Shown: one piece after another, positions 2 through 17,358 of the stretch
Layout of the letters: every line of letters begins with the position of its first letter
Position numbering within the stretch: position 1 is the stretch's first letter
Assembly (NCBI GenBank): GCA_944389555.1
Contig: CALXMU010000001.1
Coordinates: 2,406 to 66,405, forward strand
Reading direction: 5' to 3'
DNA from: an uncultured Alphaproteobacteria bacterium
GTDB lineage: Bacteria; Pseudomonadota; Alphaproteobacteria; Rs-D84
Length of the DNA: 64,000 nt
Made by a program: the position numbers and the translations under genes
The notes under the pieces: generated by a model
Seen by the model: the letters and a program-made list of their open reading frames with translations, nothing else
Database searches by the model: none
Told to the model about the DNA's origin: nothing

Positions 2-670
2 CTTCCTTCTCCGAAACCAGAATATGTGGCTCAAGACTTAACAAAATTAGTAACTGTAACATTTGGTCGCAGTGATGGATGCCCGTTTGAAACGGAAACG
101 GAATGTGAAATATGGCGCAGGAAACCTATAATCCGCGAAACAGTTTCTCCACGCAGCCCAAAAATTCGGGCGGACAAAATGAACGAATTTATTAGTGCCG
201 CTCGTTGCGATGAGGATATAACAGCGAACAATCCGTTGGCTGCACCATTGTTAGAACGTTATAAGATGCTTATGGGTTCTGCAAACGCTTGCTGTACAGA
301 CGGTATGGCATATGCATTAAAACAAGCAGGTGCCACAGATGGATTGGTATATAAATTCTTATCTGACGACGCTAACTTCTATGGTTTTGGGGCACGCTGC
401 TTGATGATGACAGATACGGAACTAGATACGAAATATCCTAACACCGCGACCGCAGCGGTTGCGGCGGACGTTCGTAACGGTTGCCTATGCCGTGGTCGCC
501 AATGGTTCTATGCGATGCTGGCACCGTTCCAGCAGGCATATAAAGAATTCCCAGAATTTGCAAATTATAAATTCAACTATACGTATACAGATGGGCTACA
601 ACGTGAAATTACAGTATCTGTAAACAACGACGTCCAGAACGTGTTAAAGCAGTTGGCTTTGTGCCCATAA
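2..670 (+). CDS. Hypothetical Cys-containing protein, 5'-partial (frame is open from the window edge)
   Basis: Frame reads LPSPKPEY-V from nt 2 with no stop upstream of the GTG at 26. It contains ACCTDG and GCLCRG Cys clusters and is followed by a terminator. Confidence 0.7.
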   Translation, partial: LPSPKPEYVAQDLTKLVTVTFGRSDGCPFETETECEIWRRKPIIRETVSPRSPKIRADKMNEFISAARCDEDITANNPLAAPLLERYKMLMGSANACCTDGMAYALKQAGATDGLVYKFLSDDANFYGFGARCLMMTDTELDTKYPNTATAAVAADVRNGCLCRGRQWFYAMLAPFQQAYKEFPEFANYKFNYTYTDGLQREITVSVNNDVQNVLKQLALCP

Positions 671-879: not shown

Positions 880-1680
880 TTAACGAAACTGTTGATTATT
901 TTGTTGCTGAGTTTTTTGAGTCAAATTACTTGTAGCATTACGAATCTGAACATTCAACGCATCTAAACACTTCTGAAACTCAGTTCTGCCTTTTATATTA
1001 GAAAAATTTGTACAATCAATTTTATCGCTCCCGTTAGTAACTGCTGTCAAAGAACTTGAGTCTAAACCTGCACCAGAAGCATTTTGACGAACTACCTCAC
1101 AATCGTTAGCCAACTGCTTTCTAAGTTCGGTTGATATGTTTGTTCCGCTACTAGACATATTATAAATCAAATTATAATTATTTCGCAGACACGTAAAAAC
1201 GCCTGATATCGTACTTTCATTATTACAATTACTTGTTCCTGCCAAATAAATATTTCTATCGGTGTAACTAGCAGAAGTACTCCCAGAAGAAGACGTACCA
1301 GTTGATGCACCTGCCGCTTCTAATTTGGCCGTTAAAATTTCACGTTCTAATTGCGTTTTTAAGCGTTTTAATGTTGCATCAAGATACTCGTACTGCTTAT
1401 ACATCTGTTGCATCATTACAGTAGATTTTAATGCGACAACGTCACGCATTATTTGCTTATTTGCTTCATTATCAGAATTCTCTGTAAGTCCAATGTTATA
1501 AACATGAGTGCTGCATAACGCTAATTCTGGGGTTATATAATCGTTATCACTTTCATTGCAACCGTTATCTGTCGCTGCACGTACAGGTGCAACAACGCAT
1601 AACGCCACCAGCAGCATAACAGCAACTTTACGTTCTGCTTTTTGAACATTTGATAAAAATTTATTTTTCGTATTCATCAC
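880..1680 (-). CDS. Secreted Cys-rich, coiled-coil hypothetical protein
   Basis: Signal peptide ending VRA-A, central coiled coil (MMQQMYKQYEYLDATLKRLKTQLE), S/T linker and several Cys. Confidence 0.75.
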   Translation of the reverse strand: MMNTKNKFLSNVQKAERKVAVMLLVALCVVAPVRAATDNGCNESDNDYITPELALCSTHVYNIGLTENSDNEANKQIMRDVVALKSTVMMQQMYKQYEYLDATLKRLKTQLEREILTAKLEAAGASTGTSSSGSTSASYTDRNIYLAGTSNCNNESTISGVFTCLRNNYNLIYNMSSSGTNISTELRKQLANDCEVVRQNASGAGLDSSSLTAVTNGSDKIDCTNFSNIKGRTEFQKCLDALNVQIRNATSNLTQKTQQQNNQQFR

Positions 1681-1683
1681 TCT

Positions 1684-3759
1684 TTATTTCGCATTTGTCA
1701 AACACTTAACAAAATTTTCACCTGTACCAGAACAATCACAACTGTTATTTTCTATATCCCATGTACCACCGTAAGTCAGACAATAAGTAAACCGTGTATT
1801 TATTTCATTTGCCTCGGCAGTATTCTGCCAATCTGTCAATGTAGCCTGTACCCCAAAAGGATCATTCTTTTGAATCCAAGAGAAGTACGAAGAATCATTA
1901 CTTGTAGATGAATTCGTGCTTAATGTCACATTGCTAACATCTTTGGCGGTGTTTTCTTTATCGCTTACGCATTCTAACTTATTATAATCAAACGTCTCTG
2001 TTTCTGGGCCATGTTTGAAGCACTCACAAGATTTTTTCGAATCGTCCCAATAGTGCCATACACCAGATTTCGCATTACATAAACATTTTGCTAATTCTAC
2101 ACCCTTTACAGCGGAACACTGTTGATAATACCCCGCAACGGATTCACTATTCGTCTCTGCTATCAACGTACCTTCCGATGCTATTTTCTTCATCTCTGAT
2201 TCAGTTACGCAAATTTTATCTGGTAAATCTTTTAAAGCCGCTATTTTCTGTAAATCACGGTACGTTTTTTCATTTAATTTACAATACGGCAAACCATCAT
2301 TTTCGGGCGTTGTCGTGCCACCAAATATGCCATTTGAACCGTATGCAGATGGTGCATCCTGCTCTATGATTCTTTGTAAAGTTTCTATATCTATTGACGC
2401 CTGACCACGGCGATTACGAAATAAGGTTGAATTATCCAAAATCTCTGACGCACAACCTATACGAACCTGAACGCCGCCTTCGCCGGTTTCTGGATACAGC
2501 CAATTACGTTGAACCTCTGCCTCGTCTTCTAAAACTTTTATCAATTGACAACCGCCATCTGACATCGGTACAACCTGACCTATTTTACAATCTGCACCAC
2601 CGGATACAACGCCACCGTTCGTTTCAACGGGCACAGATTTACCATCCGGACAATTCTTATCGTTATAATGCATTACTTGACCTTCTGCGCACAGATATTG
2701 CCCCCATGCATTACATGTGCCGTTCAGCATCATATAAATATCTGTAATATCAACACCGACAGATTGCGCCAAAATCAAGGCATCATAAACTTCATCTAAA
2801 ACATCGTTATATGGGTCAAAGAACTCCATAGCCTTGTTCTTAAATGTAGAAACTCTTTTCGGTCCTGTACAATTACTGCCCGTAGAATTACATCCGGCAT
2901 ATGCAAACGCCGTATCCATTGCCGCCTTAGCCGATTTTAAAGCGACTTCCGCATTTTCAATTTTCGTTAAAATCTGTCCTGAAATCTGTTCACGAGCCAA
3001 TAAATCAGCAGAAATTCCGGATGCCGCAGCTAATTGTTGAGCCGTAGTTAAACCAGATGTATTTGTTGAACTTGTCGTTGCCGCAGAAGTTGTCGTAGCA
3101 CTACTTACACTTGAACTTGATTGCTGCGTTGGCATAGATGCAACTGTTGCCGCACTTGAAGCCGCCGCCGCATCCGCGATGGCCTGACTTGTAGCCTGCT
3201 GTTGTTGCGCTAGCGCTGCCTGAATTTGCGCCGCAGTATCTGCACTTTGTTGCTGCATTTGTTGTTGCATCTGTACCATTTGCTGCTGCATTTGAGCCAT
3301 TTGTTGTGCACTTTGCTGTGCCGCCGCATTAGCCGCAGCAACCTGAGCGTCTGCCGCCGCCTGCTGCGCCGCAGCGTTAGAATCCGCCACCAATTGCGCA
3401 GAAATATATTCTATTAAATTGTCACCGTATTGCTTACATGAAGAATTTGACTCAACACAACCAGAAACTATCGGTCGGGCAATTTCCAATGACGCACACC
3501 CACCATTTGCACATTTCGGCTGCGCACACCGCAAAATCACTGCATTACAATTACCAAAATCTGCCGTGGGCGTTGTGGTTGTGGCACTATTTGCCCTTGG
3601 GTTCATATAACTGTTCCACATTGCATTATTAGTAGCCCCGGAATTACCATTAAACGCCGTCAAATTACTGCCAACAGTCGTAGCCACGGGCGCCGCCGCA
3701 TAAGCGTTTACGCCACACAGTGCAAGCGCAACTAATAAAAATCTGGATATATTCTTCAT
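1684..3759 (-). CDS. Large secreted Cys-rich protein with Q/A-rich coiled coil and S/T linker
   Basis: Probable start MKNISRFLLVALALCGVNAYA at 3759 (signal peptide). Contains motif CNAVILRCAQPKC, a Q/A low-complexity tract and small Cys-rich C-terminal modules. Confidence 0.8.
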   Translation of the reverse strand: MKNISRFLLVALALCGVNAYAAAPVATTVGSNLTAFNGNSGATNNAMWNSYMNPRANSATTTTPTADFGNCNAVILRCAQPKCANGGCASLEIARPIVSGCVESNSSCKQYGDNLIEYISAQLVADSNAAAQQAAADAQVAAANAAAQQSAQQMAQMQQQMVQMQQQMQQQSADTAAQIQAALAQQQQATSQAIADAAAASSAATVASMPTQQSSSSVSSATTTSAATTSSTNTSGLTTAQQLAAASGISADLLAREQISGQILTKIENAEVALKSAKAAMDTAFAYAGCNSTGSNCTGPKRVSTFKNKAMEFFDPYNDVLDEVYDALILAQSVGVDITDIYMMLNGTCNAWGQYLCAEGQVMHYNDKNCPDGKSVPVETNGGVVSGGADCKIGQVVPMSDGGCQLIKVLEDEAEVQRNWLYPETGEGGVQVRIGCASEILDNSTLFRNRRGQASIDIETLQRIIEQDAPSAYGSNGIFGGTTTPENDGLPYCKLNEKTYRDLQKIAALKDLPDKICVTESEMKKIASEGTLIAETNSESVAGYYQQCSAVKGVELAKCLCNAKSGVWHYWDDSKKSCECFKHGPETETFDYNKLECVSDKENTAKDVSNVTLSTNSSTSNDSSYFSWIQKNDPFGVQATLTDWQNTAEANEINTRFTYCLTYGGTWDIENNSCDCSGTGENFVKCLTNAK

Positions 3760-3889
3760 ATTCTCTCTTACCTGCAATTTTAACATAAAAATTACAAACA
3801 GAAAAGATAAAAATCAACAATATTACCCACAATAAACTTTAACCTTATTAAATATTGACAAAATATAATTTTAGTATAATATATTGAAT

Positions 3890-5665
3890 ATGATTATTGA
3901 AAAAGGCACGCTTTTATACGTATCCAAAGATGACCTTGATGAACAGGGGGTACTGCGCATACCAGAAGGAGTAACCGATATACTAGAAGGCGTAGGTTCT
4001 GCCATTCCTGGATTACGTAAAATATATTTTCCAGATTCTATGTCAAAGATAAACACACCGATATTCGAAGACAATTATAAGTTGGACAGCATTTACTTCG
4101 GCAAAAACATAAGTTTTATCAATTACGCTCCTTTCAAGCGCTGCCCAAATATAAAAACCATTCATATTCCAAACAAACGTTTTAGACTATTTCCATTATC
4201 TTTATTTGAAAATCTTAAAACCATAGTCGTAAACGATAAAAATCTTCAGATAGTCCAACACCTAAAAAAATATTCCGGTAAATATTATTACGAATCAAAC
4301 GTTAGAAACATCGGTAATATAAGAATATCAAAGGTGCAAAAAGTAGACTTAACCACGTTCTATGACCCAAGCAGTAAAGTTTGTCTGAACGTGGGAGATA
4401 AAAAACAATACCGCTTTATAGAAGATACGTTATCTGAATCTATAAAAGCTTGCCGAAAGTATTTAATGTTGCAGGAATTTGACTATTATATGTGGAAATA
4501 TAAAGCGACGCATAAATCTGATGAAAGAATTGACCAATATCAAACAATTTTACGAGACGCTATATCTAAATACATATCAAATAAAGATTTTACTTTTACC
4601 AAAGCAAATATTAGCAAAGTAAAACAGCATATACAGAAAATACCAATTTATATTAAATATATTAAAAAATATTCAGAGGAATATACATCTGCACAAAATT
4701 GCTTTGGGGAACTTTCCGACATAACAATTGATAACCTATTAAGAAAAATAAAACCTGTTAAACGCAGCGCTGTAAAACAATCTTGTACCAGATGGTTAAA
4801 AAAACATCCTGTTTCATCAGAAGAACTTACTTCCATCGCTTTGGCAGGTTATAAAAATCCTGGTGCTTTCCCATATTCTTGGATAAAAAAGATACCCGCA
4901 ACAAAACGAGGAAGTGCAACTAAACAGCTGCATAAATTATTTAAGCAAACAACAACTCAATTATATACGCCAGACAATAATATGCTGCAACCGTATATAA
5001 ATAAAGACATATTAAGAAATTTTGCAGAACAAATATCAAAAATAATTAAACAAGAAATTGAAATTCGTTATTTGGGTTCTGGAACATTTTCAAAAACATA
5101 CACTTTACAAATCCCGGGCGATAAAAAATACGTATGGAAAATATACCATTGCGATACTAGCGAGGCCTCAATAAATTCATATTATCATGACACCGAATTA
5201 CAGAATTCTTTTCTAATTGGCGGTAAAAAATATTTAGGTCAAAAGAAGTTTCGAAAAATATCTACAGCTGGCATCAGTAATCAACGCGGTCAAATATATT
5301 TGATATATCCTTATACAGAAGCGAAACCTATAAAAAACAAAATACACAGACCATTTGAAGCTTTGCGTAAATACTCTCTATTAGATAAAAACTGCGCTAA
5401 CTTCCTTGGCAACACAATAATAGACCTTGGTGCACTACGTATAAATTATAGCAACTTGGGTCAATCAAAGCATATATCTAAAATAACAAATACTATATTG
5501 TATCACTCTAAAAACGAACTTGTATACGTTCTAAATAATTACACGTCTACTCAGATAAATGACGCATTAAATTTCATAAACGAACGAATATCTATAAACC
5601 ACATTGAATTTAGCGCTATAAAAGCAAAAATAGAATTCTTGAAACAGAAAGCGAACATACGATAA
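3890..5665 (+). CDS. BspA-type leucine-rich-repeat protein fused to a minimal protein-kinase-like domain
   Basis: N-terminal IPEGVTDI / LRKIYFPDSMSKI / LDSIYFGKNISFI / CPNIKTIHIP repeats. C-terminal LGSGTFSKTY (Gly loop), YVWK, DKNCAN, IIDLG. Visibly AT-rich. Confidence 0.65.
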   Translation: MIIEKGTLLYVSKDDLDEQGVLRIPEGVTDILEGVGSAIPGLRKIYFPDSMSKINTPIFEDNYKLDSIYFGKNISFINYAPFKRCPNIKTIHIPNKRFRLFPLSLFENLKTIVVNDKNLQIVQHLKKYSGKYYYESNVRNIGNIRISKVQKVDLTTFYDPSSKVCLNVGDKKQYRFIEDTLSESIKACRKYLMLQEFDYYMWKYKATHKSDERIDQYQTILRDAISKYISNKDFTFTKANISKVKQHIQKIPIYIKYIKKYSEEYTSAQNCFGELSDITIDNLLRKIKPVKRSAVKQSCTRWLKKHPVSSEELTSIALAGYKNPGAFPYSWIKKIPATKRGSATKQLHKLFKQTTTQLYTPDNNMLQPYINKDILRNFAEQISKIIKQEIEIRYLGSGTFSKTYTLQIPGDKKYVWKIYHCDTSEASINSYYHDTELQNSFLIGGKKYLGQKKFRKISTAGISNQRGQIYLIYPYTEAKPIKNKIHRPFEALRKYSLLDKNCANFLGNTIIDLGALRINYSNLGQSKHISKITNTILYHSKNELVYVLNNYTSTQINDALNFINERISINHIEFSAIKAKIEFLKQKANIR

Positions 5666-5692
5666 AAAAACCGCCAATTGGCGGTTTTTTTT
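5664..5692. terminator. Bidirectional intrinsic terminator
   Basis: A7-CCGCC-AATT-GGCGG-T8 between convergent genes. Confidence 0.9.
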
Positions 5693-5693
5693 A

Positions 5694-8600
5694 TTATTCC
5701 ATACTTACGCTTAAAATGTCACCATATTGTCCTGCTTCATCGGTACCGATATAGCACTTTATATGCTTACCGACATTATTCATCCATTCTTCGTAAGCTG
5801 CCTTCTCAGCGGCACTTAAATTAGACGCTTGGATATCACGTGTTGCCTTATTTACTAACAACCCACCTGCAACACCCGTAACCACAGCCCCCAATGTTGG
5901 CGCCAACCACTGATTCTTCGCTTCAGATGAAGAATCTGTATTTTCACAAGCCGTCTTCAAAACGCCCAGTGCATTTATGGCCTGAGTTTTAGCGTTTCCT
6001 AACGCTTGAGTTTGAGATTCTGTCACAGATTTACCAGCGTTATTTACTGCGGTTTGTGCAGAAATCCATGCTGCCACCGAATTCTTCGCAGCGCTAATGG
6101 TGCTATCAGCCACCTTTTGTTTTTTGGCTTCTGATTCCAAAGATGTCATCCAACCAGAAACATTGCTTAAGCTTACTGAATTTGCATTACCAGTATTGAT
6201 CTCTTTTTCTATAGCAGTTATAAATTTAACCGCCTTATTTTCATTATTTTTATTTTCATTCAACCCGGTGATACCGCCAAATACATTTCCCTTCTGGATG
6301 CCGCTGCCTAAATACGCACCGCCAACTATACCGCCAACACTGCCCAATAATGTCGTCCAGAACGCGGTTCTATTCTGACTTTCGCGTTGAGATGCAGTTG
6401 CTTCGTCTACAGCCGCATTTGCCAATTCTTCCAATGTATCTGCTGGTATCCAGCTGCCGCAAGTAAAGGTATCGCCAACCGCAAAGTATGCCGTTGCCCA
6501 ATCCGCTCCGTTCATTGCTTTCTGAATATCCATGTCATCAGACTGTAACCTTACCTGAACGCTGCAGAAAGAACCATATAATTCATTACTTGGATTAAAG
6601 TCGCTACGTTCCAATCCCATTATACTATAATCGCTTGGTACGTTTTTGCCCTTTAACTTTACCCACATATATGTGCTGCCTGTATCATTAGCGCCCATTA
6701 TGCCGCCGCTATTTGCTGCCAAGCACATATTCTGTTCTTCTGTCAGTTTCTTGTTGTATATAGCCTGAGCCTCTTTTTCCAGGTCATATACCAAATCACG
6801 GAACAATGTAGATGCCGCCTGCGTCTGCAGATATGTAGAATATGAAGTGTATACAGGTGTATCGTATACCTTTCCAGTTGCATCTACTGAATAGCAAACG
6901 CCTTGGCTGCCATCAGATGCCGTACACAATGGATTACCGCTATCATCAGTTGCTTGAACTTGATTTAGCGTAGCCGTAACCTGAGTCGCTGCACCAGCAT
7001 CAATCCAACCTTCACGAACATTCGTCGCCGCACCCCATGAAGATGCACTATTTGAAGACTCTGCAATTTTCAATTTGTTCTGTTCAATGGCCAAATGTTC
7101 CTGACATACAGATGCATTTTTAACAGTATCCAAACACAACCCCAGAACAACAGTATAATCCAACACACCGCCCACTTTATTCATACTGGAATCAAACGAA
7201 GAATCGCCAGATTGGGTCAATGATGAATAAATATCAGTACGATTACGATAACAACTGCTGTAATCAGAACCGCACATAGAACGAACGCAACTTTTTGCGA
7301 CCGCTTCGCACTGCGTGCGCATCTGAGCGATTGCCGCATCGCTATAACTTGTCGCCAAAGAAGCGTTCAATGCGGCAATTACACCGATTGGGTCACCGCT
7401 ATTACTGCTGTACTTTGGGAACAAAGTATCAAATGCGTCATTATTTATATACGTATATGTATAACCACCAGTACTATCTGGATTTGCCGCGGCATACTTA
7501 CAATACGGATCTGTATTTACGATATCAGAACATCCCGTTTTGATTTCTTCATAACTTACAGCATTATTGATAGTCTTATCAATTGTACCAAACACTTGTG
7601 AGTAACATGCGGCACCACTGCCACCACCACAAACACGCATGGCACAAGATTTTATTGTGTTCATACAATTAGATTTCGCTTCGCTATCAAATTGTTCTAT
7701 CAATTCTGCAATACGAGCCTTCATTGAAGAATTCATACGAGACGCATATGCATCACCAAAAATATCTTCTTGATTCATTTCGTCGCTTAACTGAGAAGAC
7801 GAAGGCATTGCACCATTACCCAAGAATGTTGCATAGCAATACTTATTTGAACCAATTGTATTCAAACAAGCGTTTTTAATATAAGACTGAACTGCTGAGC
7901 TGCTATTGGTGTCAACAGACGCTGTTATAGTCGCCGCATCAACTTCTGTTCCACTGTTTATAGCGTCAACCAGATCAATTGTGCTAACGGTTGATTCTTC
8001 GTTACATTTATATGGATTTGTTGCGCAAGCATTCAAAATACACTGGTCAACGACCTTGTAACAGGTAGATACAGCATTTACCGCCGCCAAGGCTGCACCT
8101 TCACTAATCATTATACCAACGCGACTATCAGCTGCTGGATTGCCGGTTACAGTTGCGGAACCAAACAGTTCTATTTTACCCTCACTCTGGCAGCGTGCTA
8201 ATGTAGAATCACAGTATACCATTTGCTTTCTGAATTCTGTATTTGTCGTGCACAATTCAAAATCTGCACCGCATACATTGTCACGTTGTAAGCAAGTCGT
8301 ATAACGACGCACGCAGTCACCGGTACTATACATATTTGAAATTGCGGCCCCCGTAATCATCTGTCCCAATACACTGCCGTCTGTTGGATATGTATAATCC
8401 GTAACTTCGCCGTATGAATTTTTAGACGCAACATTTGATAAAGATGTAGTCGAAGAAGTTCCAAATAATGCGTTTACACCAGATGCAGAACATTGCGCCA
8501 ATGTACTTAAGCATAACGGCATTTTCCCATGGAATAAAACTTTCGTCGTACATTCTTCAAAATTAGCGCCACAGACATCAGTCCCCTTCAAGCAAGATGT

Positions 8601-8798
8601 ATACGCATCAATGCATTCTGCATTATCCAACAAATTTGATGTTGAAGATGAAGAATTTGAACTGTTTATATACGCAGTCATTGTCGGCAATCTAGACGAA
8701 GCCGTTCCGACAATGCTGGGACGCGCAGTCAAAGCATACGCCGCAGGTACAACGCCACAAACGGCTAAGAAACCAATTGATTTTTTCAGAAAGTTCAT
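5694..8798 (-). CDS. Large secreted Cys-rich repeat protein with C-terminal glycine-zipper hydrophobic helices
   Basis: GGAG RBS before ATG 8798 and a signal peptide (..PAAYA). Repeated C-x6-C-x4/6-C-x6/7-C units. Hydrophobic segments TLLGSVGGIVGGAYLG and TLGAVVTGVAGGLLV. Confidence 0.8.
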   Translation of the reverse strand: MNFLKKSIGFLAVCGVVPAAYALTARPSIVGTASSRLPTMTAYINSSNSSSSTSNLLDNAECIDAYTSCLKGTDVCGANFEECTTKVLFHGKMPLCLSTLAQCSASGVNALFGTSSTTSLSNVASKNSYGEVTDYTYPTDGSVLGQMITGAAISNMYSTGDCVRRYTTCLQRDNVCGADFELCTTNTEFRKQMVYCDSTLARCQSEGKIELFGSATVTGNPAADSRVGIMISEGAALAAVNAVSTCYKVVDQCILNACATNPYKCNEESTVSTIDLVDAINSGTEVDAATITASVDTNSSSAVQSYIKNACLNTIGSNKYCYATFLGNGAMPSSSQLSDEMNQEDIFGDAYASRMNSSMKARIAELIEQFDSEAKSNCMNTIKSCAMRVCGGGSGAACYSQVFGTIDKTINNAVSYEEIKTGCSDIVNTDPYCKYAAANPDSTGGYTYTYINNDAFDTLFPKYSSNSGDPIGVIAALNASLATSYSDAAIAQMRTQCEAVAKSCVRSMCGSDYSSCYRNRTDIYSSLTQSGDSSFDSSMNKVGGVLDYTVVLGLCLDTVKNASVCQEHLAIEQNKLKIAESSNSASSWGAATNVREGWIDAGAATQVTATLNQVQATDDSGNPLCTASDGSQGVCYSVDATGKVYDTPVYTSYSTYLQTQAASTLFRDLVYDLEKEAQAIYNKKLTEEQNMCLAANSGGIMGANDTGSTYMWVKLKGKNVPSDYSIMGLERSDFNPSNELYGSFCSVQVRLQSDDMDIQKAMNGADWATAYFAVGDTFTCGSWIPADTLEELANAAVDEATASQRESQNRTAFWTTLLGSVGGIVGGAYLGSGIQKGNVFGGITGLNENKNNENKAVKFITAIEKEINTGNANSVSLSNVSGWMTSLESEAKKQKVADSTISAAKNSVAAWISAQTAVNNAGKSVTESQTQALGNAKTQAINALGVLKTACENTDSSSEAKNQWLAPTLGAVVTGVAGGLLVNKATRDIQASNLSAAEKAAYEEWMNNVGKHIKCYIGTDEAGQYGDILSVSME

Positions 8799-8923
8799 TC
8801 GACTCACTCCATACTTATTACATTAAGTATAACATAAAATCAAAAACAGACAAAGGAAAAATACACGAATTTATAAACATTTGATAAAAAATTGGGGGAT
8901 AAAACCCCATTTATTTTTTTTCA

Positions 8924-10422: not shown

Positions 10423-10932
10423 TTATTTCCTCTGGTTTTCTATTTCAACGGCAATCTTTTCAACATTTTCAGTAGGTACAGACAATTTATGGTTAAATTT
10501 TACATCATTGCCAGCATCTAACAATGTCGCAGACGGTAAAAAACGTTGACGCGCAACAACATTACCTTTTGCATCATATGAAACGATTACCAAACCAGGG
10601 GCACCATAAATTTGCTCTGACCTATTCACAACACGCCCAGAAACCACGAAAAATTTTCGCCCATTTTCATCGGTATCTATTTGCACATCACTAATTTCTG
10701 CAATAACGGGTTTCTCACGAATTTCTTTGGCCTTATATTGATATAAAACAGCAACTGCAAAAACCAATGCCGCCAACAAAGCACATAATGCAGCTATAAA
10801 AACCAAGATAGAATTACGACGAGGCGGCCGCTGTACAGTCCATGTATGACCGCAAACCGCGCATTTCACAGGTCCATTAGGAGCCATATCTAACGAATAT
10901 TCTGTTTTACAAAAATCACATACTGTTTTCAT
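10423..10932 (-). CDS. Zinc-ribbon + TM + DUF3426-like protein (ZitP-like)
   Basis: CDFC-x-CAVCGHTW zinc ribbon, single TM, C-terminal VVSGRVVNRS..P.L....YD..G beta domain. Confidence 0.75.
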   Translation of the reverse strand: MKTVCDFCKTEYSLDMAPNGPVKCAVCGHTWTVQRPPRRNSILVFIAALCALLAALVFAVAVLYQYKAKEIREKPVIAEISDVQIDTDENGRKFFVVSGRVVNRSEQIYGAPGLVIVSYDAKGNVVARQRFLPSATLLDAGNDVKFNHKLSVPTENVEKIAVEIENQRK

Positions 10933-10952
10933 ATTACGATTTATACCACATT

Positions 10953-12275
10953 TTATTCCAAATTCAACTGACTATATTTTGCTCTTACGGTTCTTTGTAT
11001 TTCATTTATAGCATTCATATAATCTGATGCTGTCGCATTCTTATTTGATACGACAGTTTTAAATATACGTTCTGTTTCTGTATTTGTGGTTTTTTCTTCG
11101 TACACTGCCATCTGAGACATACGATTTAATTCTTGTAACGAAACGTCCATAAAACTAGCAACACCAGTTGCAGCATCCCAATAAAAGTTTGAATTAATTG
11201 AATCTTCTATTCTATCGTAAACGACTAAACGAGGCGTAATAGACCCGGCAAAACCAACCGTAACAAACATCGCGTCAATATTACCAGCATTCATATCTAA
11301 AGATTTATTTATATTTAATACAGCGGGGCCATCATCAGAATTAATGGATAAACTTGGTAACGTCATATTCGTCACCCATAAATCACCGGTTGTGAAACTA
11401 GTAAATTTCCCCACATCTGCTAATGATAAATTTTTGGTAACTTCCATTGTTCTTGAATCCGAAGACAAAGTTCCAGCAACAGTTGCATTTTGAACTTCAA
11501 AAACCTTATCCAAGGTAGTTCTGTTTTGAAAAACTACGTCTGTAGAAACAGTTTCCCCCAAGATTAAAGTCTCTGCAAATTCAGTATTAGCAGCGTTAAA
11601 AAATGTCGCATTTATTATATCATGCCCCCCCAGATTTAAACCCGACAGCATCGTCGCATCAGATTCACTATCCGTTGGAACTCTATATAAGTACAAAGCA
11701 TTATCACGATTAACCGAAGTTGTTTCAACTAATCCATCAGTTACATTTAACCCCAAATCTATCGCATCAGTACGCCACGCACCGAAAGTACCATATGCAC
11801 GATTACCTTCGATAAACCCCATAGAATCACCGCCCATTGCGACTATTTCACGCGTTCTCATAGGTGTTATTTCTTCCGATGAATATACTATTATCCCCTG
11901 AAGAGTGGCACGATCTTCTATATCGCTAGACTTCAAAACTCGTAATTGATATTGACCAGAAGCATCTGCCACCAAATCCGGATTTAAACCATATTCTTCC
12001 AAATCGGATAAATTTATACGAGTTATATTACGTCCAACAGTTGTAAGTAATTCTTCGCGATGATCAACTATATATCTTTCCAAGGAAGATTGTATGTCTT
12101 CCATTTGTTCGGTAATAGCCTTGTTTTCTGCCCGCTGAACAACGCTTTGCTGATATTTGAAAATGAAAGGCATTATTATTGCGGCCAATGCAACACTCAT
12201 CAATAATTCTACTAACATAGAACCTTGCTGACTGACATCTTCTGCGTTAAAAATTTTATTCAAACGCCTCTTCAT
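10953..12275 (-). CDS. PilV-like (shufflon N-domain) type IV minor pilin/adhesin, copy 3
   Basis: QQG|SMLVE prepilin site; MGFIEGNRAYGTFGAW and YLYRVP..M..LNLGGHDIINA motifs; ATGA overlap with the upstream gene. Confidence 0.75.
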   Translation of the reverse strand: MKRRLNKIFNAEDVSQQGSMLVELLMSVALAAIIMPFIFKYQQSVVQRAENKAITEQMEDIQSSLERYIVDHREELLTTVGRNITRINLSDLEEYGLNPDLVADASGQYQLRVLKSSDIEDRATLQGIIVYSSEEITPMRTREIVAMGGDSMGFIEGNRAYGTFGAWRTDAIDLGLNVTDGLVETTSVNRDNALYLYRVPTDSESDATMLSGLNLGGHDIINATFFNAANTEFAETLILGETVSTDVVFQNRTTLDKVFEVQNATVAGTLSSDSRTMEVTKNLSLADVGKFTSFTTGDLWVTNMTLPSLSINSDDGPAVLNINKSLDMNAGNIDAMFVTVGFAGSITPRLVVYDRIEDSINSNFYWDAATGVASFMDVSLQELNRMSQMAVYEEKTTNTETERIFKTVVSNKNATASDYMNAINEIQRTVRAKYSQLNLE

Positions 12276-13474
12276 TGCGCATCCTTTGGCATCACAAATT
12301 CCCAATCTTCAGACATAATAGCAGAAAACTCTTTATCTGAAGGCATCGCCGGAACAGAACTTCGTGATAAATATAATTCATAAAACATCGGCGGTGTTAA
12401 AGAAGGGAAAACCCAATTACCTATTTTTAACGGCGCAGTAGTTGACATCAATAATTCGCCCGATATTGTAAGACCGAAATTTTCATAGAACACAATTTCT
12501 TCTGTTGATATGAATGAAGTATACACGGTATGAGCAACTATACCAGAGAAACCGCTTACTGTACGAGAATCATCAGATTTCAGCGTTAAAACGTTACCTA
12601 TGTTTATAGAATTTAGAATAGTCGCTCTATCCGTAATAATCCGACCCGACGTGGTATACTTATTACCATTCAAACTATCTGCATATATATTTCTAAAACC
12701 AGAAATGTCACCGGTAACGCGCATAGAATTTAACCACGCATTTTCACCGTCTAAATTAGCACCAGATGAAAAATACAACGTATTTGCGACTAAATTATTA
12801 GTTTCTATGAACTGCCCAGAAACGTTTTTTATCTTTGCAGACTTTGCGCTTATTCCCCCGACATCATAGACTCGATTATTATTCATGTTCAAATCGCGTA
12901 ACATCACATTAAGTTTTTCTTCGCCCGTCTCCGTACGATGTAGGTAACGCGTCTTATCATCGCCGTTTAAAGCACCTGATATTCTATATATTAAATTCCC
13001 CTCTTTGAAATCTGGCGCAGATACAGCCCACGTCCGACCATACGCAATTCCGTCGCTACCGACAACCGCCGCATCAGAACCTATATGCCTAGCAATCTTA
13101 GACGTCTGTAAATCCGTACCATCTATATCAAACGCCAGATACACATCTGTTATTGTTGCGCCATTTACAACGTACTTATCTATGAAACCTGATTCTGGGA
13201 TTTCTGATATTTCATCTAGTTCTTCGTCTGATAGTTTTATCTGCGCAACATTTGGCCAGTCGTTCTGGTTCAAACGAACGAAATTCAAAACAGGATTACG
13301 CAATTCTATAATCTTGTTTGCCGCCGCTATATTACGCAAACTATCATTTGTATCGGAAATTTGGCTATATAATAAAGGCGTAGCCATGGCGACGATCGCC
13401 ATTGCTAGTAAAACTTCTAGCATACTGGCACCACGTTCACAATCCGTAAAAAATCTATCTTTACATGCAGTCAC
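12272..13474 (-). CDS. PilV-like type IV minor pilin/adhesin, copy 2
   Basis: ERG|ASMLE prepilin site; IARHIG..AYGRTW and YLHR...LNVMLRDLNMNNN motifs. Confidence 0.75.
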   Translation of the reverse strand: MTACKDRFFTDCERGASMLEVLLAMAIVAMATPLLYSQISDTNDSLRNIAAANKIIELRNPVLNFVRLNQNDWPNVAQIKLSDEELDEISEIPESGFIDKYVVNGATITDVYLAFDIDGTDLQTSKIARHIGSDAAVVGSDGIAYGRTWAVSAPDFKEGNLIYRISGALNGDDKTRYLHRTETGEEKLNVMLRDLNMNNNRVYDVGGISAKSAKIKNVSGQFIETNNLVANTLYFSSGANLDGENAWLNSMRVTGDISGFRNIYADSLNGNKYTTSGRIITDRATILNSINIGNVLTLKSDDSRTVSGFSGIVAHTVYTSFISTEEIVFYENFGLTISGELLMSTTAPLKIGNWVFPSLTPPMFYELYLSRSSVPAMPSDKEFSAIMSEDWEFVMPKDAQ

Positions 13475-14816
13475 TGCGCCCTTCCAATAAACACTGTTTT
13501 ATATTTATTCTTTGTTCTAACCGCCGCCAGAAATAGTACTGACAAACGATGTACTGTGATAAAGACTTTGCATTATAACGACCATCTAATTTAGATATAA
13601 CATCTCTACAACTTTGAATTTTTCCGTCATCCGAAGACGGATTACTGATTATAGCAAAACCATCATTACTAATTGTGCTTAATAAAACGTCGGGTAAAAT
13701 AGAAGTACCAGCAGGTCTAATATCTAAAACCACCGCACCTGTTTCACCCTGATTCAAAGCATCTGAAGTCTGATCCCGCATGGTTATATTTGATGTAATA
13801 ACTCTATTCGCCTCAATACCGCTACGAGAACTGTACTCTAAATCATCCGGGTCAATGTAAACGTCTTGCCCACGCGAAGCATCTATATAAGAATCTATAT
13901 CTAAACGTTCTACACTAAAGTTTATATTTTGGCTTATGACATCACCGTTTACTTTCCAATCCAGCGGTCCGGAAAAACTATTTCTTCCGGCAGTCATTGC
14001 GAAGTCATATACGGCCGCCACATTTGACGTAAAATTACCGGTATCTCCGAACGCAGAAATTGTTCTAGCAGAAACATCACCTGCATATAAAGAACCCCGA
14101 GTCAAAGATAAGGCTGATTCACCAAGTGCGCTTTGAAACACTGCCCGTTCTGCCATCATAACGTCAATTGTGTTACGAACTTTTCTGCCGTCTTCAAGCC
14201 CATATATAGACAACATATTAAATTGACCGCTATCAAATTCGCCCCGTCGCGCAAATATTTCACCACCGTTATTAAAAGAAAAACCACCCATATCTAAATT
14301 AGTAAGAAAAGCATTATTATCTAAATTCTGTTCGTTTCTACGTACTACATCTGAATAAGCAGCGTCCAAAGCCAAACCAACCATAATAGTATCGCCGGAA
14401 ACAGACGCATAATACCCTATACGACGAGCCAATTCTGCCAGTTCCACTGGCGACAAATTCCCTCCTGTCAGTTGCAAATACGCACTAACTGCCATAGGCG
14501 TTTTATTTATAACTAACGAAATATCTTGCCCAAGCGCTGTCCGCGGGATAAAACCAAGCGGCAAACCATATGATTCTAATAAATCGGCAAACGTATCACC
14601 AGAAACTACAGTTGTATTATAAGGCAAATCATTTGCACGTTCACGAACGAAAATTCTTGCTGCAGTTTGAGCAACCTCAACTTTTTGCGTAGAAGCATAC
14701 ATCTGAGAATCAACGTCACGAGCAGACAACCGCTGTGCAAAGAACGGTATGAACGAAAATATCAGCGTCAAGGCAAGTAACGCCTGTAATAAAAAATTTC
14801 CGTTTTGTTGGCGCAA
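13461..14816 (-). CDS. PilV-like type IV minor pilin/adhesin, copy 1 (Q instead of E at +5)
   Basis: AGGAGG RBS then TTG at 14816, reading MRQQNG|NFLLQALLAL. Contains L.SYGLP.GF, LARRIG and FLTNLDMGG motifs. Confidence 0.7.
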   Translation of the reverse strand: MRQQNGNFLLQALLALTLIFSFIPFFAQRLSARDVDSQMYASTQKVEVAQTAARIFVRERANDLPYNTTVVSGDTFADLLESYGLPLGFIPRTALGQDISLVINKTPMAVSAYLQLTGGNLSPVELAELARRIGYYASVSGDTIMVGLALDAAYSDVVRRNEQNLDNNAFLTNLDMGGFSFNNGGEIFARRGEFDSGQFNMLSIYGLEDGRKVRNTIDVMMAERAVFQSALGESALSLTRGSLYAGDVSARTISAFGDTGNFTSNVAAVYDFAMTAGRNSFSGPLDWKVNGDVISQNINFSVERLDIDSYIDASRGQDVYIDPDDLEYSSRSGIEANRVITSNITMRDQTSDALNQGETGAVVLDIRPAGTSILPDVLLSTISNDGFAIISNPSSDDGKIQSCRDVISKLDGRYNAKSLSQYIVCQYYFWRRLEQRINIKQCLLEGRSDCM

Positions 14817-14960
14817 ATTAAACTTCCCTCCTACACGGGGAATATTAGCAAGTGAAAAAAAATATTGCAATCGCTTTTAAGATTCATTATTATTTAACAT
14901 GTTGAATAAGCGATAGTGATAAAACACTATTAAACATTTCCTGAAACAAAAAAAACGAAT

Positions 14961-16899: not shown

Positions 16900-17358
16900 A
16901 TGATTCAAGAACGTGGTGCATCAATGATTGAAATTATCGGAGTACTTGCCATTGCCGGTCTTATGAGTGCCGCCGCAATAGGAATGTATAACGTAATAAG
17001 AAATAATCAAACGCGCAAAATAGCATCCGTTGAAATAGAACAAATTGCAAAAAAAACTAACTTATTGATGGGCATGCGCGGTGATTACACTGGTCTATCG
17101 GTGGATTACTTAGTATCGGCGGGCGCATTAAATAATACAAATGCACCGATTGGCGGAAACGATTGGTCTGTTACAGCGACAAACGGTGGAAAGGGTTATT
17201 CAATAAACCTAACGCAGTTAACTGAAGGCGAATGCCAATATTTTACATCGGCTCTTCCTAAATGGGCGACGCGTGTAACAGTAAATGGGATAGAAGTAAC
17301 TTCTTCATCTAACTGCTTTTCTACAGATACAAATCAAATTTCTTTCATAGTAGAATAA
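16900..17358 (+). CDS. Type IV prepilin, PilS-like major pilin candidate
   Basis: MIQERG|ASMIEIIGVLAIAG; DYTGL, NAPIGG and a C-terminal Cys pair; 152 aa. Confidence 0.8.
   Translation: MIQERGASMIEIIGVLAIAGLMSAAAIGMYNVIRNNQTRKIASVEIEQIAKKTNLLMGMRGDYTGLSVDYLVSAGALNNTNAPIGGNDWSVTATNGGKGYSINLTQLTEGECQYFTSALPKWATRVTVNGIEVTSSSNCFSTDTNQISFIVE

What the first reader, a model, noticed from the sequence alone, without database searches (positions are those of the whole stretch)
880..8798. Family of large secreted Cys-rich proteins sharing a C-x6-C-x4/6-C-x4-7-C module
The 1037-aa protein has two ~100-aa tandem repeats (CIDAYTSCLKGTDVCGANFEECTT / CVRRYTTCLQRDNVCGADFELCTT) and three related units (CYKVVDQCILNAC, CMNTIKSCAMRVC, CEAVAKSCVRSMC). 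The 700-aa protein carries the same module (CNAVILRCAQPKC). Three co-oriented signal-peptide proteins, plus a fourth Cys-containing ORF at the window edge, cluster next to the pilin genes. I recognise no family. Inference: a disulfide-stapled surface or periplasmic complex, by analogy with Cys-rich mating-pair stabilisation proteins.
Basis: partly seen in the sequence, partly recalled or inferred. Interest (0 to 1): 0.7.

Follow-up and report, generated by a model that had tools for sequence, protein, structure and literature searches.

The report
Cysteine-stapled envelope proteins of Enterousia
These genes encode large exported, disulfide-rich proteins of no known family that every member of a tiny-genome gut bacterial lineage keeps, and the largest joins an almost unchanging scaffold to a fast-changing head that probably faces the outside world.

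Summary
The Cys patterns are real, but the "one family" reading holds only in part. The window comes from an 882-kb genome whose closest named relatives are Candidatus Enterousia (Alphaproteobacteria, order Rs-D84; gut).

**The 1037-aa protein** (5694-8807, minus strand):
- It has five 6-Cys helix-loop-helix units. Units 1 and 2 are clear duplicates; units 3 to 5 are weaker relatives.
- It is a full-length, single-copy core gene, found in 271 of 271 sampled genomes of its family.
- Cys counts (odd in the scaffold, made even by one invariant tail Cys, even in the head) point to disulfides throughout.
- A four-helix head between two Gly-rich hydrophobic segments is hypervariable: 29-44% identity, against 78-92% for the scaffold.

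**The module** recurs in 12 proteins of this genome and was found in only 3 of 301 sampled Alphaproteobacteria, all in this order.

**The other proteins:**
- The 700-aa protein shares only the Cys spacing. A module profile built without it does not find it.
- The 266-aa and edge proteins carry no module.
- The 700-aa and 266-aa genes form one unit and are a single ORF in 5 of 80 related loci.

No Pfam, NCBIfam or PDB match explains any of them, and a UniRef "TraN" label on a homologue failed every test run here. The most likely role is envelope proteins with an exposed variable head. Function is inferred, not shown. The scan has already noted this family in other Enterousia genomes.

The parts
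5694..8807 (-). 1037-aa core Cys-rich exported protein (called C1037 here)
   Evidence: ORF. 893 unnamed homologues with no Pfam domain. Found in 271 of 271 genomes of its family. AF2 model has mean pLDDT 78 and is mostly helical.
8730..8807 (-). Signal peptide, residues 1-26, ending in A-Y-A; a conserved TARPS motif follows
   Evidence: Hydrophobic segment at residues 9-29. The AxA site and TARPS motif are conserved in the consensus of 51 homologues. The Cys in the signal peptide is not conserved (5 of 51), so this is not a lipobox.
8472..8633 (-). 6-Cys unit 1 (residues 59-112; spacing C-x6-C-x6-C-x6-C-x12-C-x6-C; core motif CG-x-[DN]-[FY]-x-x-C)
   Evidence: Recovered by a module HMM built without this protein, iE 1e-5 to 4e-6. 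Helix-loop-helix in the AF2 model.
8172..8333 (-). 6-Cys unit 2 (residues 159-212), a tandem duplicate of unit 1
   Evidence: hhalign 99.7% against unit 1. Leave-one-out HMM iE 1e-4 to 1e-7.
7836..8063 (-). 6-Cys unit 3 (residues 249-324; C-x6-C-x4-C-x6-C, then C-x9-C)
   Evidence: Cys spacing. All six Cys present in 51 of 51 homologues. hhalign to unit 5 is 70%. Not significant against the module HMM.
7500..7667 (-). 6-Cys unit 4 (residues 381-436)
   Evidence: hhalign to unit 5 is 68%. Not significant against the module HMM.
7104..7310 (-). 6-Cys unit 5 (residues 500-568; contains CGSDYSSC)
   Evidence: hhalign to unit 1 is 81%. Module HMM iE 5e-7 in the iterated search; 0.002-0.15 in the leave-one-out tests.
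6369..6740 (-). Alpha/beta domain (residues 690-813) with invariant C695, C748 and C783; shared with a 296-aa paralogue at G000:C1:232406-233296
   Evidence: AF2 strands at 713-782. Domain HMM hits the paralogue at E 7.8e-10.
6258..6362 (-). Gly-rich hydrophobic segment 1 (residues 816-850; GxxxGxxxGxxxG)
   Evidence: Read directly from the sequence. pLDDT below 50. Shared with the 296-aa paralogue, E 3e-6. No Pfam glycine-zipper match.
5922..6257 (-). Hypervariable four-helix head (residues 851-962)
   Evidence: Four helices in the AF2 model, with generic four-helix-bundle matches only. Identity is 29-44% against 29 of the 30 closest homologues, while the scaffold is 78-92%. Indel hot spots. 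Cys number is even in 47 of 51 homologues.
5838..5921 (-). Gly-rich hydrophobic segment 2 (residues 963-990)
   Evidence: Hydropathy peak at 967-986. pLDDT below 50.
5697..5837 (-). Conserved C-terminal tail (residues 991-1037) with invariant C1018
   Evidence: C1018 is present in 51 of 51 homologues. Scaffold Cys count is odd in 50 of 51; scaffold plus tail is even in 50 of 51. Identity is 70-96% among close homologues.
1684..3786 (-). 700-aa Cys-rich exported protein (called B700), a separate core family
   Evidence: ORF. 1124 homologues. Found in 57 of 61 family genomes, and in 43 of 43 high-quality ones. AF2 model is weak: pLDDT 60.5, pTM 0.26.
3430..3561 (-). B700 6-Cys stretch (residues 76-119; spacing 6,4,4,12,6)
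   Evidence: Spacing. Helix-loop-helix with pLDDT about 80. Not recovered by module profiles built without it, and hhalign is 10% or less.
880..1680 (-). 266-aa exported protein (called A266), partner of B700
   Evidence: Starts 3 nt after the B700 stop. Fused to B700 as one ORF in 5 of 80 loci. Six invariant Cys. No module.
2..670 (+). C-terminal 222 aa of a 473-aa Cys-rich exported protein (E473; the gene starts at G000:C1:1654)
   Evidence: No family match. Lies near C1037 in 43 of 80 loci.
3884..5665 (+). 593-aa BspA-type LRR protein on the opposite strand, with no signal sequence
   Evidence: Pfam LRR_5, E 2.5e-8. No hydrophobic N-terminus. Present in 20 of 80 loci.
8893..8909 (-). Terminator-like hairpin after rluD; a promoter-like site at 8826-8853 follows, ahead of C1037
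   Evidence: These are consensus matches only, and the counts are not above shuffles.
5664..5691 (.). 12-bp-stem hairpin flanked by T and A runs, between the convergent C1037 and LRR genes
10423..10932 (-). ZitP-like protein (MJ0042-type zinc ribbon, TM segment, DUF3426)
   Evidence: Pfam and NCBIfam matches and a TM segment. Same architecture as Caulobacter ZitP, which is needed for pilus biogenesis (PMC5182063, passages read).
10953..14870 (-). Three large (450, 400 and 469 aa) pseudopilin-like genes
   Evidence: N-terminal G-x-x-x-x-E hydrophobic segments. Weak N_methyl and GspI matches for the 400-aa protein. Co-linear with C1037 in 72-74 of 80 loci.
16900..17358 (+). 152-aa type IV pilin-like gene
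   Evidence: N-terminus MIQERG/ASMIE followed by a hydrophobic helix. No Pfam match at E 0.01 or better.

Best explanation
The region holds parts of a lineage-specific set of Sec-exported, disulfide-stapled envelope proteins of Candidatus Enterousia and its relatives (order Rs-D84).

**The 1037-aa protein.** It is a single-copy core protein with four parts:
- A scaffold of about 760 aa, mostly helical. It is built from five 6-Cys helix-loop-helix units plus an alpha/beta domain, and is almost invariant.
- Two glycine-zipper-like hydrophobic segments that flank a hypervariable four-helix head.
- A conserved tail that carries one Cys.

The tail Cys makes the scaffold's odd Cys count even, so the tail probably folds back and is disulfide-bonded to the scaffold (inferred).

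Because scaffold, head and tail all look oxidised, the whole protein is extracytoplasmic. The Gly-rich pair most likely embeds it in a membrane, probably the outer one, with the head exposed (inferred). The head would then be the surface that meets partners, phages or host immunity, while the scaffold is a structural envelope part.

**The 700-aa and 266-aa proteins.** They form a second, unrelated core unit that acts as one protein.

**Shown versus inferred.** Shown: the Cys architecture, conservation, parity, hypervariability, lineage restriction and the fusion. Inferred: the disulfides themselves, the location, the topology and the role.
For: - **Export.** N-terminal hydrophobic segments with AxA sites. 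The organism is a diderm: LptD, LptF, LpxD, Skp, BamB and OmpA lie in the window.
- **Oxidising machinery.** A Thioredoxin_4/DsbA-like gene and two ORFs with CPYC and CPHC motifs.
- **Structural Cys.** 27 of the 31 invariant alignment columns are Cys. Most Cys are present in 51 of 51 homologues.
- **Parity.** Scaffold Cys count is odd in 50 of 51. Scaffold plus tail is even in 50 of 51. The head has 0, 2, 4, 6 or 8 Cys in 47 of 51, at shifting positions.
- **Units.** Five motif sites against a shuffle mean of 0.016. Helix-loop-helix in the AF2 model. hhalign unit 1 versus unit 2 is 99.7%.
- **Module family.** 19 domains in 12 proteins, and 0 in reversed or shuffled controls. Leave-one-out profiles recover units 1 and 2.
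- **Lineage restriction.** Module matches in 4 of 301 sampled Alphaproteobacteria. Three are in this order and one is a spurious 55-aa frame.
- **Core status.** 271 of 271 family genomes. B700: 57 of 61.
- **Variable head.** 29-44% identity against 78-92% for the scaffold in 29 of the 30 closest homologues; the 30th is 99-100% identical throughout. Lowest column conservation and indel hot spots.
- **Fusion.** B700 and A266 are one ORF in 5 of 80 loci.
- **No known family or fold.**
Against: - No coordinates of the models could be read, so no Cys-Cys distance was measured. Disulfides rest on parity and conservation alone.
- No DsbB or VKOR was found, and the lineage is reported to lack a respiratory chain (PMC12306168, passages). 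How DsbA would be re-oxidised is therefore open.
- The Gly-rich segments gave no Pfam glycine-zipper match and are low-confidence coil in the model. They could be linkers, or inner-membrane spans.
- The query's own clade (4 of 51) has a single Cys in the head.
- The 51 sequences are related, so the parity counts are not independent events.
- The fold search effectively tested only residues 851-962 of the 1037-aa model. The scaffold's fold is 'no match found', not 'shown to be new'.
- The B700 model is poor (pLDDT 60.5).
Confidence: 0.55

Rival explanations
1. The 1037-aa protein and its 296-aa paralogue are accessory parts of the type IVb-like pilus. Possible roles are a tip or base factor, an alignment subunit, or a secretin partner. 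They would be recruited alongside the three giant pseudopilins and the ZitP-like protein.
For: - C1037 lies downstream of pseudopilin x3, ZitP-like, a 176-aa exported protein and rluD, in the same direction, in 72-75 of 80 loci.
- The 296-aa paralogue lies two genes after TcpQ-like and secretin. That order is kept in 9 of 15 sampled genomes.
- The genome has a full pilus set: T2SSE, T2SSF, PAP_PilO, a prepilin peptidase, a secretin and a pilin.
- ZitP is needed for pilus biogenesis in Caulobacter (PMC5182063).
Against: - The conserved block also holds housekeeping genes (rluD and a DNA polymerase III tau gene; plsY and dnaA at the other locus). The order may therefore be general synteny of reduced genomes.
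- A terminator-like and a promoter-like site separate rluD from C1037.
- In 5 of 80 loci no rluD or pilus-block gene was detected beside C1037; in three of these less than 4.5 kb was available on that side.
- There is no match to PilY1/PilC or any pilus family.
Confidence: 0.2
2. The two hydrophobic segments span the inner membrane. The scaffold and tail are then periplasmic and the four-helix bundle is cytoplasmic, making this a bitopic hairpin membrane protein of the sensor or anchor type.
For: - A signal peptide followed by two hydrophobic segments is the classic hairpin topology.
- The bundle resembles four-helix sensor and adaptor bundles: TorS Z 12.2, PcaY Z 11.9, talin R3 Z 12.7.
- The tail Cys parity fits the tail and scaffold being on the same side.
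Against: - The bundle gains and loses Cys in pairs, with an even count in 47 of 51. That is unexpected in the cytoplasm.
- It is the most variable, indel-rich part of the protein.
- The bundle matches are at a level that the tool itself flags as a common arrangement for helical bundles.
- Segment 1 has modest hydropathy, below the 1.4 threshold used.
Confidence: 0.12
3. The invariant cysteines bind metal (zinc or iron-sulphur) rather than forming disulfides, and the proteins are periplasmic metal or redox proteins.
For: - No DsbB or VKOR was found.
- The habitat is the anaerobic gut, and the lineage is reported to have no respiratory chain.
- Regular clusters of four Cys exist in each unit.
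Against: - The Cys sit at i and i+7 on paired helices rather than in CxxC knuckles.
- Strict even parity across parts that vary in Cys number.
- DsbA-like genes with CPHC and CPYC motifs are present.
- No metal-binding family matched.
Confidence: 0.08
4. The 1037-aa protein is a released toxin or effector. Its C-terminal helical region would hide a hydrophobic hairpin that inserts into a target membrane, as in colicin-type or XaxA/YaxA-type pore formers.
For: - Weak sequence hits of residues 821-1024 to XaxA/YaxA (E 0.26-0.32) and to colicin E1 (E 2.4).
- Hydrophobic segments flank a helical bundle.
Against: - All of those hits are non-significant and fit coiled-coil composition.
- The gene is a single-copy core gene with an invariant scaffold in 271 of 271 genomes. 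That fits a structural part better than a weapon.
- No immunity-like neighbour was seen.
Confidence: 0.05

Closest known systems
TraN, the mating-pair stabilisation protein of F-like plasmids (Pfam PF06986; PMC9246713, passages read)
   Same: An exported envelope protein with more than 20 conserved Cys, all thought to be in intramolecular disulfides. It has a conserved body plus one variable part that sets partner specificity. A UniRef record names a B700 homologue 'TraN'.
   Different: No PF06986 or NCBIfam match for B700, for its named homologue, or anywhere in the genome. No tblastn match to 72,556 plasmids. TraN is described as mostly beta with a beta-sandwich tip, whereas C1037 is mostly helical with a four-helix head. 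There is no F-type tra operon around these genes.
CHCH-type twin-Cx9C helical hairpins of the mitochondrial intermembrane space (recalled; also named in earlier scan note e1-1096365)
   Same: Helix-loop-helix units with pairs of Cys on each helix, on one face, suited to two staples per hairpin. C-x9-C pairs do occur in units 3 to 5.
   Different: The spacing here is mainly C-x6-C. There are six Cys per unit, with two in the loop. The units are chained into a protein of about 760 aa exported by Sec in a bacterium. No sequence relation was found.
Glycine-zipper outer-membrane lipoproteins (Pfam Gly-zipper_Omp PF13488, Rick_17kDa_Anti PF05433; NCBIfam YiaD NF053611)
   Same: GxxxG-repeat hydrophobic segments in envelope proteins. 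A module-bearing paralogue (G000:C2:69337-71772) gives weak matches: Gly-zipper_Omp E 0.0016 and YiaD E 0.43.
   Different: C1037 itself gives no such match, has no lipobox, and its two segments are separated by a 110-330-aa variable bundle.
Chlamydial cysteine-rich envelope proteins OmcA/OmcB (recalled)
   Same: Abundant Cys-rich exported proteins that cross-link the envelope of a reduced-genome, host-dependent, Gram-negative-type bacterium.
   Different: No sequence match. Enterousia is reported to keep rod-shape and peptidoglycan genes. C1037 has a hypervariable head.

Membership tests
TraN (F_T4SS_TraN, PF06986 / F-type TraN NCBIfam model) | Match to the family profile | tested here: not met
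   No hit at E of 10 or better for B700, for its UniRef-named homologue P0282, or for a fused form. No hit in the whole genome, while the E. coli control was positive. No hit for C1037, A266 or E473 at E of 0.1 or better.
TraN (F_T4SS_TraN, PF06986 / F-type TraN NCBIfam model) | At least 20 conserved Cys in an exported envelope protein | tested here: met
   B700 has 16 invariant and 6 nearly invariant Cys. C1037 has 27 invariant Cys columns. Both have signal sequences.
TraN (F_T4SS_TraN, PF06986 / F-type TraN NCBIfam model) | Mostly beta N-terminal domain with a beta-sandwich tip (PMC9246713) | tested here: not met
   The C1037 model is mostly helical and its variable part is a four-helix bundle. 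For B700 alone this remains inconclusive, because the model is poor (pLDDT 60.5; residues 450-548 below 50).
TraN (F_T4SS_TraN, PF06986 / F-type TraN NCBIfam model) | Encoded within an F-type tra/trb transfer operon | tested here: not met
   The neighbours are rluD, pilin-like genes, an LRR gene and housekeeping genes. The only transfer-type gene seen is a VirD4-like gene about 14 kb away.
CHCH twin-Cx9C hairpin | Two helices each carrying C-x9-C | tested here: not met
   The helices carry C-x6-C in all five units. C-x9-C occurs only as the second pair of units 3 to 5.
CHCH twin-Cx9C hairpin | Helix-loop-helix stapled by two disulfides | not testable with these tools
   The helix-loop-helix is seen in the AF2 secondary structure.
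Glycine-zipper membrane domains (PF13488, PF13436, PF13441, PF05433) | Profile match over the Gly-rich segment | tested here: not met
   No hit at E of 10 or better for C1037 residues 800-1037 or for either segment alone. The GxxxGxxxGxxxG pattern itself is visible in the sequence.
PilY1/PilC-type pilus tip adhesin | Large non-pilin protein encoded within the minor-pilin operon | tested here: inconclusive
   Same strand and conserved order. However, three genes including rluD, and a terminator-like site, intervene.
PilY1/PilC-type pilus tip adhesin | C-terminal beta-propeller domain (PilC/PilY1 family profile) | tested here: not met
   No Pfam match at E of 0.1 or better. The model's C-terminal part is helical.
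New 6-Cys module family (this report) | C-x6-C-x4-6-CG-x-[DN]-[FY]-x-x-C-x10-15-C-x5-7-C, recognised by a profile built from other proteins | tested here: met
   Met for C1037 units 1 and 2 (leave-one-out iE 1e-4 to 1e-7). Weak for unit 5. Not met for units 3 and 4, nor for B700.

The most novel reading that the evidence does not exclude
The 1037-aa protein may be a new kind of outer-membrane display protein. A pair of glycine-zipper segments, not a beta-barrel, would carry a disulfide-braced, cassette-like four-helix head across to the cell surface. A conserved periplasmic scaffold would hold it, locked by a tail-to-scaffold disulfide. The head would be the strain-specific contact organ by which these tiny-genome gut bacteria recognise the partner cells they depend on, possibly working with the type IVb-like pilus encoded next to it.
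Probability: 0.15. Interest if true: 0.8.

Novelty: new variant of a known kind. Interest (0 to 1): 0.55.

Why it matters
Candidatus Enterousia and its relatives are common gut bacteria with genomes of about 0.9 Mb. They are reported to lack a TCA cycle, a respiratory chain and standard nutrient transporters (PMC12306168, passages read), so they must live off something else. How they do so is unknown.

By a crude filter, about 6% of this genome (27 ORFs) encodes Cys-rich proteins with an N-terminal hydrophobic segment, and most of them match no family. A core protein that pairs an invariant scaffold with a hypervariable head is a direct candidate for the contact surface. It gives a concrete target for antibodies, pull-downs and strain typing.

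The 6-Cys helix-loop-helix module is also a candidate new domain family for the databases. In the papers found with the terms 'Enterousia' (16 papers) and 'Rs-D84' (12 papers), nothing in the titles or abstract openings concerns these proteins. The one paper searched inside has 0 occurrences of 'cysteine'. A 2023 Enterousia paper cited there is not in the library and was not seen.

Tried and rejected
**Family and database searches**
- Pfam and NCBIfam on all four proteins and their neighbours gave no family. PHROGs gave only a compositional hit on B700's Gln/Ala-rich stretch.
- PDB sequence search with profiles A1 and A2 gave nothing significant. The best was E 0.0013, to a designed helical binder.
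- The ESM Atlas gave no usable hit for C1037 or for B700 residues 255-700.
- The UniRef 'TraN' name for a B700 homologue was rejected.

**Fold searches**
- Foldseek against the PDB with the C1037 model gave 0 matches at E of 0.001 or better.
- VIA-align, wide and second look, matched only residues 851-962, and only to generic four-helix bundles.
- VIA-align wide with the B700 model matched only a generic long helical hairpin, residues 256-345, with Z of 9.4 or less.

**Paralogy**
- phmmer and one-round profiles found no paralogy among the four proteins, and none to the other Cys-rich ORFs. The exception is the 296-aa paralogue of C1037.

- Complex prediction for B700 (255-700) with A266 (35-266) never ran. 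No verdict exists.
- Model coordinates do not reach the script machine, so no disulfide geometry was measured.

**Expression**
- No RNA holder was listed for 880-8807. The holders are gut metagenome DNA runs, mostly chicken.

**Weak leads**
- A tail-region profile gives weak hits to three other ORFs (E 5e-4 to 2e-3, against 0.15 for the best reversed control). This is too weak to call a shared anchor.

**Earlier scan notes**
- A look-up for this genome returned nothing.

Full report
**What is there**

The region holds three minus-strand ORFs: 266 aa (880-1680), 700 aa (1684-3786) and 1037 aa (5694-8807). A plus-strand ORF runs off the window start (2-670). A 593-aa plus-strand ORF (3884-5665) lies between the 700-aa and 1037-aa genes.

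The edge ORF is the last 222 aa of a 473-aa protein that starts upstream in the same contig. All four Cys-containing proteins begin with a hydrophobic segment of signal-peptide type. The 593-aa protein does not; it carries BspA-type leucine-rich repeats (Pfam LRR_5, E 2.5e-8).

**Organism**

- The window lies in an 882,323-bp genome of 5 contigs, 37-39% G+C per contig, rated 100% complete.
- Relatives of the 1037-aa protein were found at 222 places in the species-level genome collection. The 80 loci listed are uncultured gut Alphaproteobacteria, many titled Candidatus Enterousia.
- Passages of PMC12306168 describe Enterousia, of order Rs-D84, as gut bacteria with genomes under about 1 Mb. [quoted passage not shown]
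- The cell is a diderm: LptD, LptF/G, LpxD, Skp, BamB-like and OmpA-family genes lie in the window.

**The observation**

Shuffles give a mean of 0.016, and 0 of 5000 reach five. It occurs once in the 700-aa protein (p about 0.012) and not at all in the other two.

Each site in the 1037-aa protein is really a six-Cys unit:
- Units 1 and 2 (Cys 65-106 and 165-206) have spacings 6,6,6,12,6.
- Units 3 to 5 (249-324, 381-436, 500-568) have 6,4,6/7 followed by a C-x9-C pair.

Profile-profile comparison on a 51-sequence alignment gives 99.7% for unit 1 versus unit 2. It gives 70% and 68% for units 3 and 4 versus unit 5, and 81% for unit 1 versus unit 5 over 22 columns.

**Is it one family?**

Only in part. 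A stricter six-Cys pattern finds 11 real instances in 7 proteins of this genome, against a shuffle mean of 1.24. Four further pattern matches in one repeat-derived ORF were dropped. The instances share the core CG-x-[DN]-[FY]-x-x-C.

An iterated profile finds 19 domains in 12 proteins, and none in reversed or shuffled proteomes. Profiles built without the 1037-aa protein still recover its units 1 and 2 (iE 1e-4 to 1e-7). Unit 5 is recovered weakly (0.002-0.15), and units 3 and 4 are not recovered.

Three tests fail to link the 700-aa protein to the module:
- A profile built without it gives no hit to it at all.
- A six-frame search with a module alignment lacking it misses it, while finding 15 other sites in the genome.
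- hhalign of its stretch against any unit of the 1037-aa protein is 10% or less.

Its stretch (Cys 80-117, spacings 6,4,4,12,6) is predicted as helix-loop-helix at pLDDT of about 80, like unit 1. A very distant relation is therefore not excluded, but it is not shown. The 266-aa and 473-aa proteins have no module. No paralogy among the four was found. The true module relatives of the 1037-aa protein are large Cys-rich ORFs on contigs C2 and C4.

**Distribution**

- A profile of the 1037-aa protein matches 278 of 301 sampled genomes of the order. That includes 271 of 271 in its own family (17 genera, mostly full length) and 0 of 23 in two other families. Three small families give only weak matches.
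- The 700-aa protein is found in 57 of 61 family genomes, and in 43 of 43 high-quality ones.
- The module matches 4 of 301 sampled genomes across the class. Three are in this order and one is a 55-aa frame containing a stop.
- Both proteins are therefore lineage-restricted core genes.
- The public protein collections hold 893 and 1124 homologues at E of 0.001 or better. Among those listed, none has a precomputed Pfam domain. The 50%-identity library holds 238 clusters for the 1037-aa protein.

**Anatomy of the 1037-aa protein**

The AF2 model has mean pLDDT 78 and pTM 0.53. It is mostly helical from residue 58 to 700 and has an alpha/beta domain at about 700-790. Four helices at 858-959 lie between two low-confidence Gly-rich hydrophobic segments (817-855 and 959-988). 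A helix and small strands follow at the C-terminus.

Segment 1 reads GxxxGxxxGxxxG. Within units 1 and 2 the first two Cys sit on one helix, the next two in the loop, and the fifth on the following helix.

**Cys parity**

All counts are from the 51 aligned homologues:
- The scaffold, from the signal peptide to segment 1, has an odd number of Cys in 50 of 51.
- The tail has one Cys in 48 of 51, and C1018 is present in 51 of 51.
- Scaffold plus tail is even in 50 of 51.
- The region between the two Gly-rich segments has 0, 2, 4, 6 or 8 Cys in 47 of 51, at positions that shift from sequence to sequence.
- The four exceptions, each with one Cys, are the query and its three nearest relatives.

Gain and loss in pairs is what disulfides predict. 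I infer that the scaffold, head and tail all sit in an oxidising compartment, and that the tail Cys bonds back to the scaffold. The sequences are related, so these counts overstate the number of independent events.

A Thioredoxin_4/DsbA-like gene is present, and two ORFs carry CPYC and CPHC motifs behind hydrophobic N-termini. No DsbB or VKOR was found.

**Variable head**

Against 29 of the 30 closest homologues (73-83% identity overall), identity by part is:

| Part | Identity |
|---|---|
| Units 1-5 | 78-92% |
| Residues 601-815 | 72-85% |
| Tail | 70-96% |
| Head (851-962) | 29-44% |

The remaining homologue is 99-100% identical everywhere. Across the 51-sequence alignment the head has the lowest column conservation (0.15-0.26) and most of the indel hot spots. 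Its length ranges from 82 to 265 aa.

**The 700-aa and 266-aa pair**

The 266-aa gene starts 3 nt after the stop of the 700-aa gene. In 5 of 80 related loci a single ORF carries the 700-aa family's positions 5-550, followed by the 266-aa family's positions 15-240 without its signal peptide. That is good evidence that they act together.

A complex prediction was planned but the tool never ran. The pair lies beside the 1037-aa gene in only 28-29 of 80 loci and is far from it in some genomes.

**Context**

Upstream of the 1037-aa gene, on the same strand, are:
- three large pseudopilin-like genes;
- a ZitP-like gene (zinc ribbon, TM segment, DUF3426);
- a 176-aa exported protein;
- rluD.

This order is kept in 72-75 of 80 loci. 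A 152-aa type IV pilin-like gene lies nearby. Pilus machinery is encoded elsewhere in the genome.

A 296-aa paralogue shares the N-terminus, the alpha/beta domain (E 7.8e-10) and Gly-rich segment 1 (E 3e-6) with the 1037-aa protein. It lies two genes after the TcpQ-like and secretin genes, and that order is kept in 9 of 15 sampled genomes. ZitP is required for pilus biogenesis in Caulobacter (PMC5182063, passages).

This is a real lead, but there are reasons for caution:
- Both blocks also contain housekeeping genes: rluD and a DNA polymerase III tau gene at one, plsY and dnaA at the other.
- A terminator-like and a promoter-like site separate rluD from the 1037-aa gene (these are consensus matches, and the counts are not above shuffles).
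- In 5 of 80 loci none of rluD and the pilus-block genes was detected beside the 1037-aa gene, and in three of these the available flank was short.

**Comparison with known families**

No Pfam, NCBIfam, PHROGs, PDB-sequence, Foldseek or Atlas match explains any of the four proteins. VIA-align matched only the head, and only to generic four-helix bundles. The best were talin R3 (Z 12.7, rmsd 2.0, 101 aligned) and the TorS sensor (Z 12.2), a level the tool itself flags as a common arrangement. The scaffold was barely tested.

A UniRef record calls a 700-aa homologue 'IncF plasmid conjugative transfer protein TraN'. That label failed every test: the Pfam and NCBIfam scans, a whole-genome PF06986 search with a positive control, and tblastn against plasmids. 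TraN is an outer-membrane protein with 22 conserved Cys, mostly beta, with a variable tip that picks the recipient's receptor (PMC9246713, passages). The resemblance is one of design, not descent.

**Verdict**

These are real, uncharacterised, lineage-specific exported proteins. The most likely reading (0.55) is disulfide-stapled envelope proteins, with the 1037-aa protein presenting a hypervariable head. Location, topology and role are inferred.

The scan has noted the same family before in other Enterousia genomes. Those notes agree on the conserved scaffold and variable head, and on the three genes not being relatives of one another.
- the Cys-parity argument;
- the leave-one-out module tests;
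- the fusion of the 700-aa and 266-aa genes;
- the 296-aa paralogue beside the secretin.

Noticed in passing
window 3884-5665 (+): The 593-aa LRR protein has no signal sequence. After the BspA-type repeats it carries a stretch reading like a kinase glycine loop followed by a lysine (…YLGSGTFSKTY…KKYVWKIYH…). No Pfam kinase match appeared at E of 0.1 or better. It is present in only 20 of 80 related loci.
   Followed up: no
window 10953-14870 (-): The three pseudopilin-like proteins are unusually large (400-469 aa) for minor pilins. One has Q in place of the usual E at position +5 (…GNFLLQ…). Their genes overlap by 14 and 34 nt.
   Followed up: partly
G000:C1:228700-234500 (L097): The genes run TcpQ-like, secretin, plsY, the 296-aa paralogue of the 1037-aa protein, dprA, dnaA. 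A type IVb-like pilus next to dprA hints at DNA uptake in a genome said to lack many biosynthetic routes.
   Followed up: partly
G000, several contigs: Many of the Cys-rich exported ORFs begin, just after the signal peptide, with an Arg/Ser/Thr-rich stretch of similar style: A-[AT]-x-R…, and TARPS in the 1037-aa protein and its 296-aa paralogue. This could be a shared sorting or tethering signal.
   Followed up: no
G000:C2 38801-50358, 65750-74335, 98558-101830, 184626-187409, 219926-223687; C4 6066-11749: A second group of about nine proteins of 800-1090 aa shares the Cys spacing 6,4,9,1 … 43,6,6,6 (or 13,6) … 33,6. One neighbour ends in an OmpA domain (Pfam E 8e-19). By a crude filter, 27 ORFs (5.9% of the genome) are Cys-rich with an N-terminal hydrophobic segment.
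   Followed up: partly
G000:C3:49537-56118: A 2193-aa ORF with 179 Cys (8%) and Listeria-Bacteroides (Flg_new) repeats, E 8e-18.
   Followed up: no
G000:C4:150000-162794 (L099): Phage- or gene-transfer-agent-like genes (portal, split terminase pieces, capsid) are interleaved with dnaB and an HTH regulator, beside a VirB11-like ATPase. A VirD4-like coupling protein sits in the window at 22856-25078.
   Followed up: no
G000:C2:1767-2129 (-): A 120-aa frame with 26 Cys made of repeated CSLTCC/CSIFRF words matched the Cys pattern. It looks like a translated DNA repeat, not a gene, and was dropped from the module counts.
   Followed up: no
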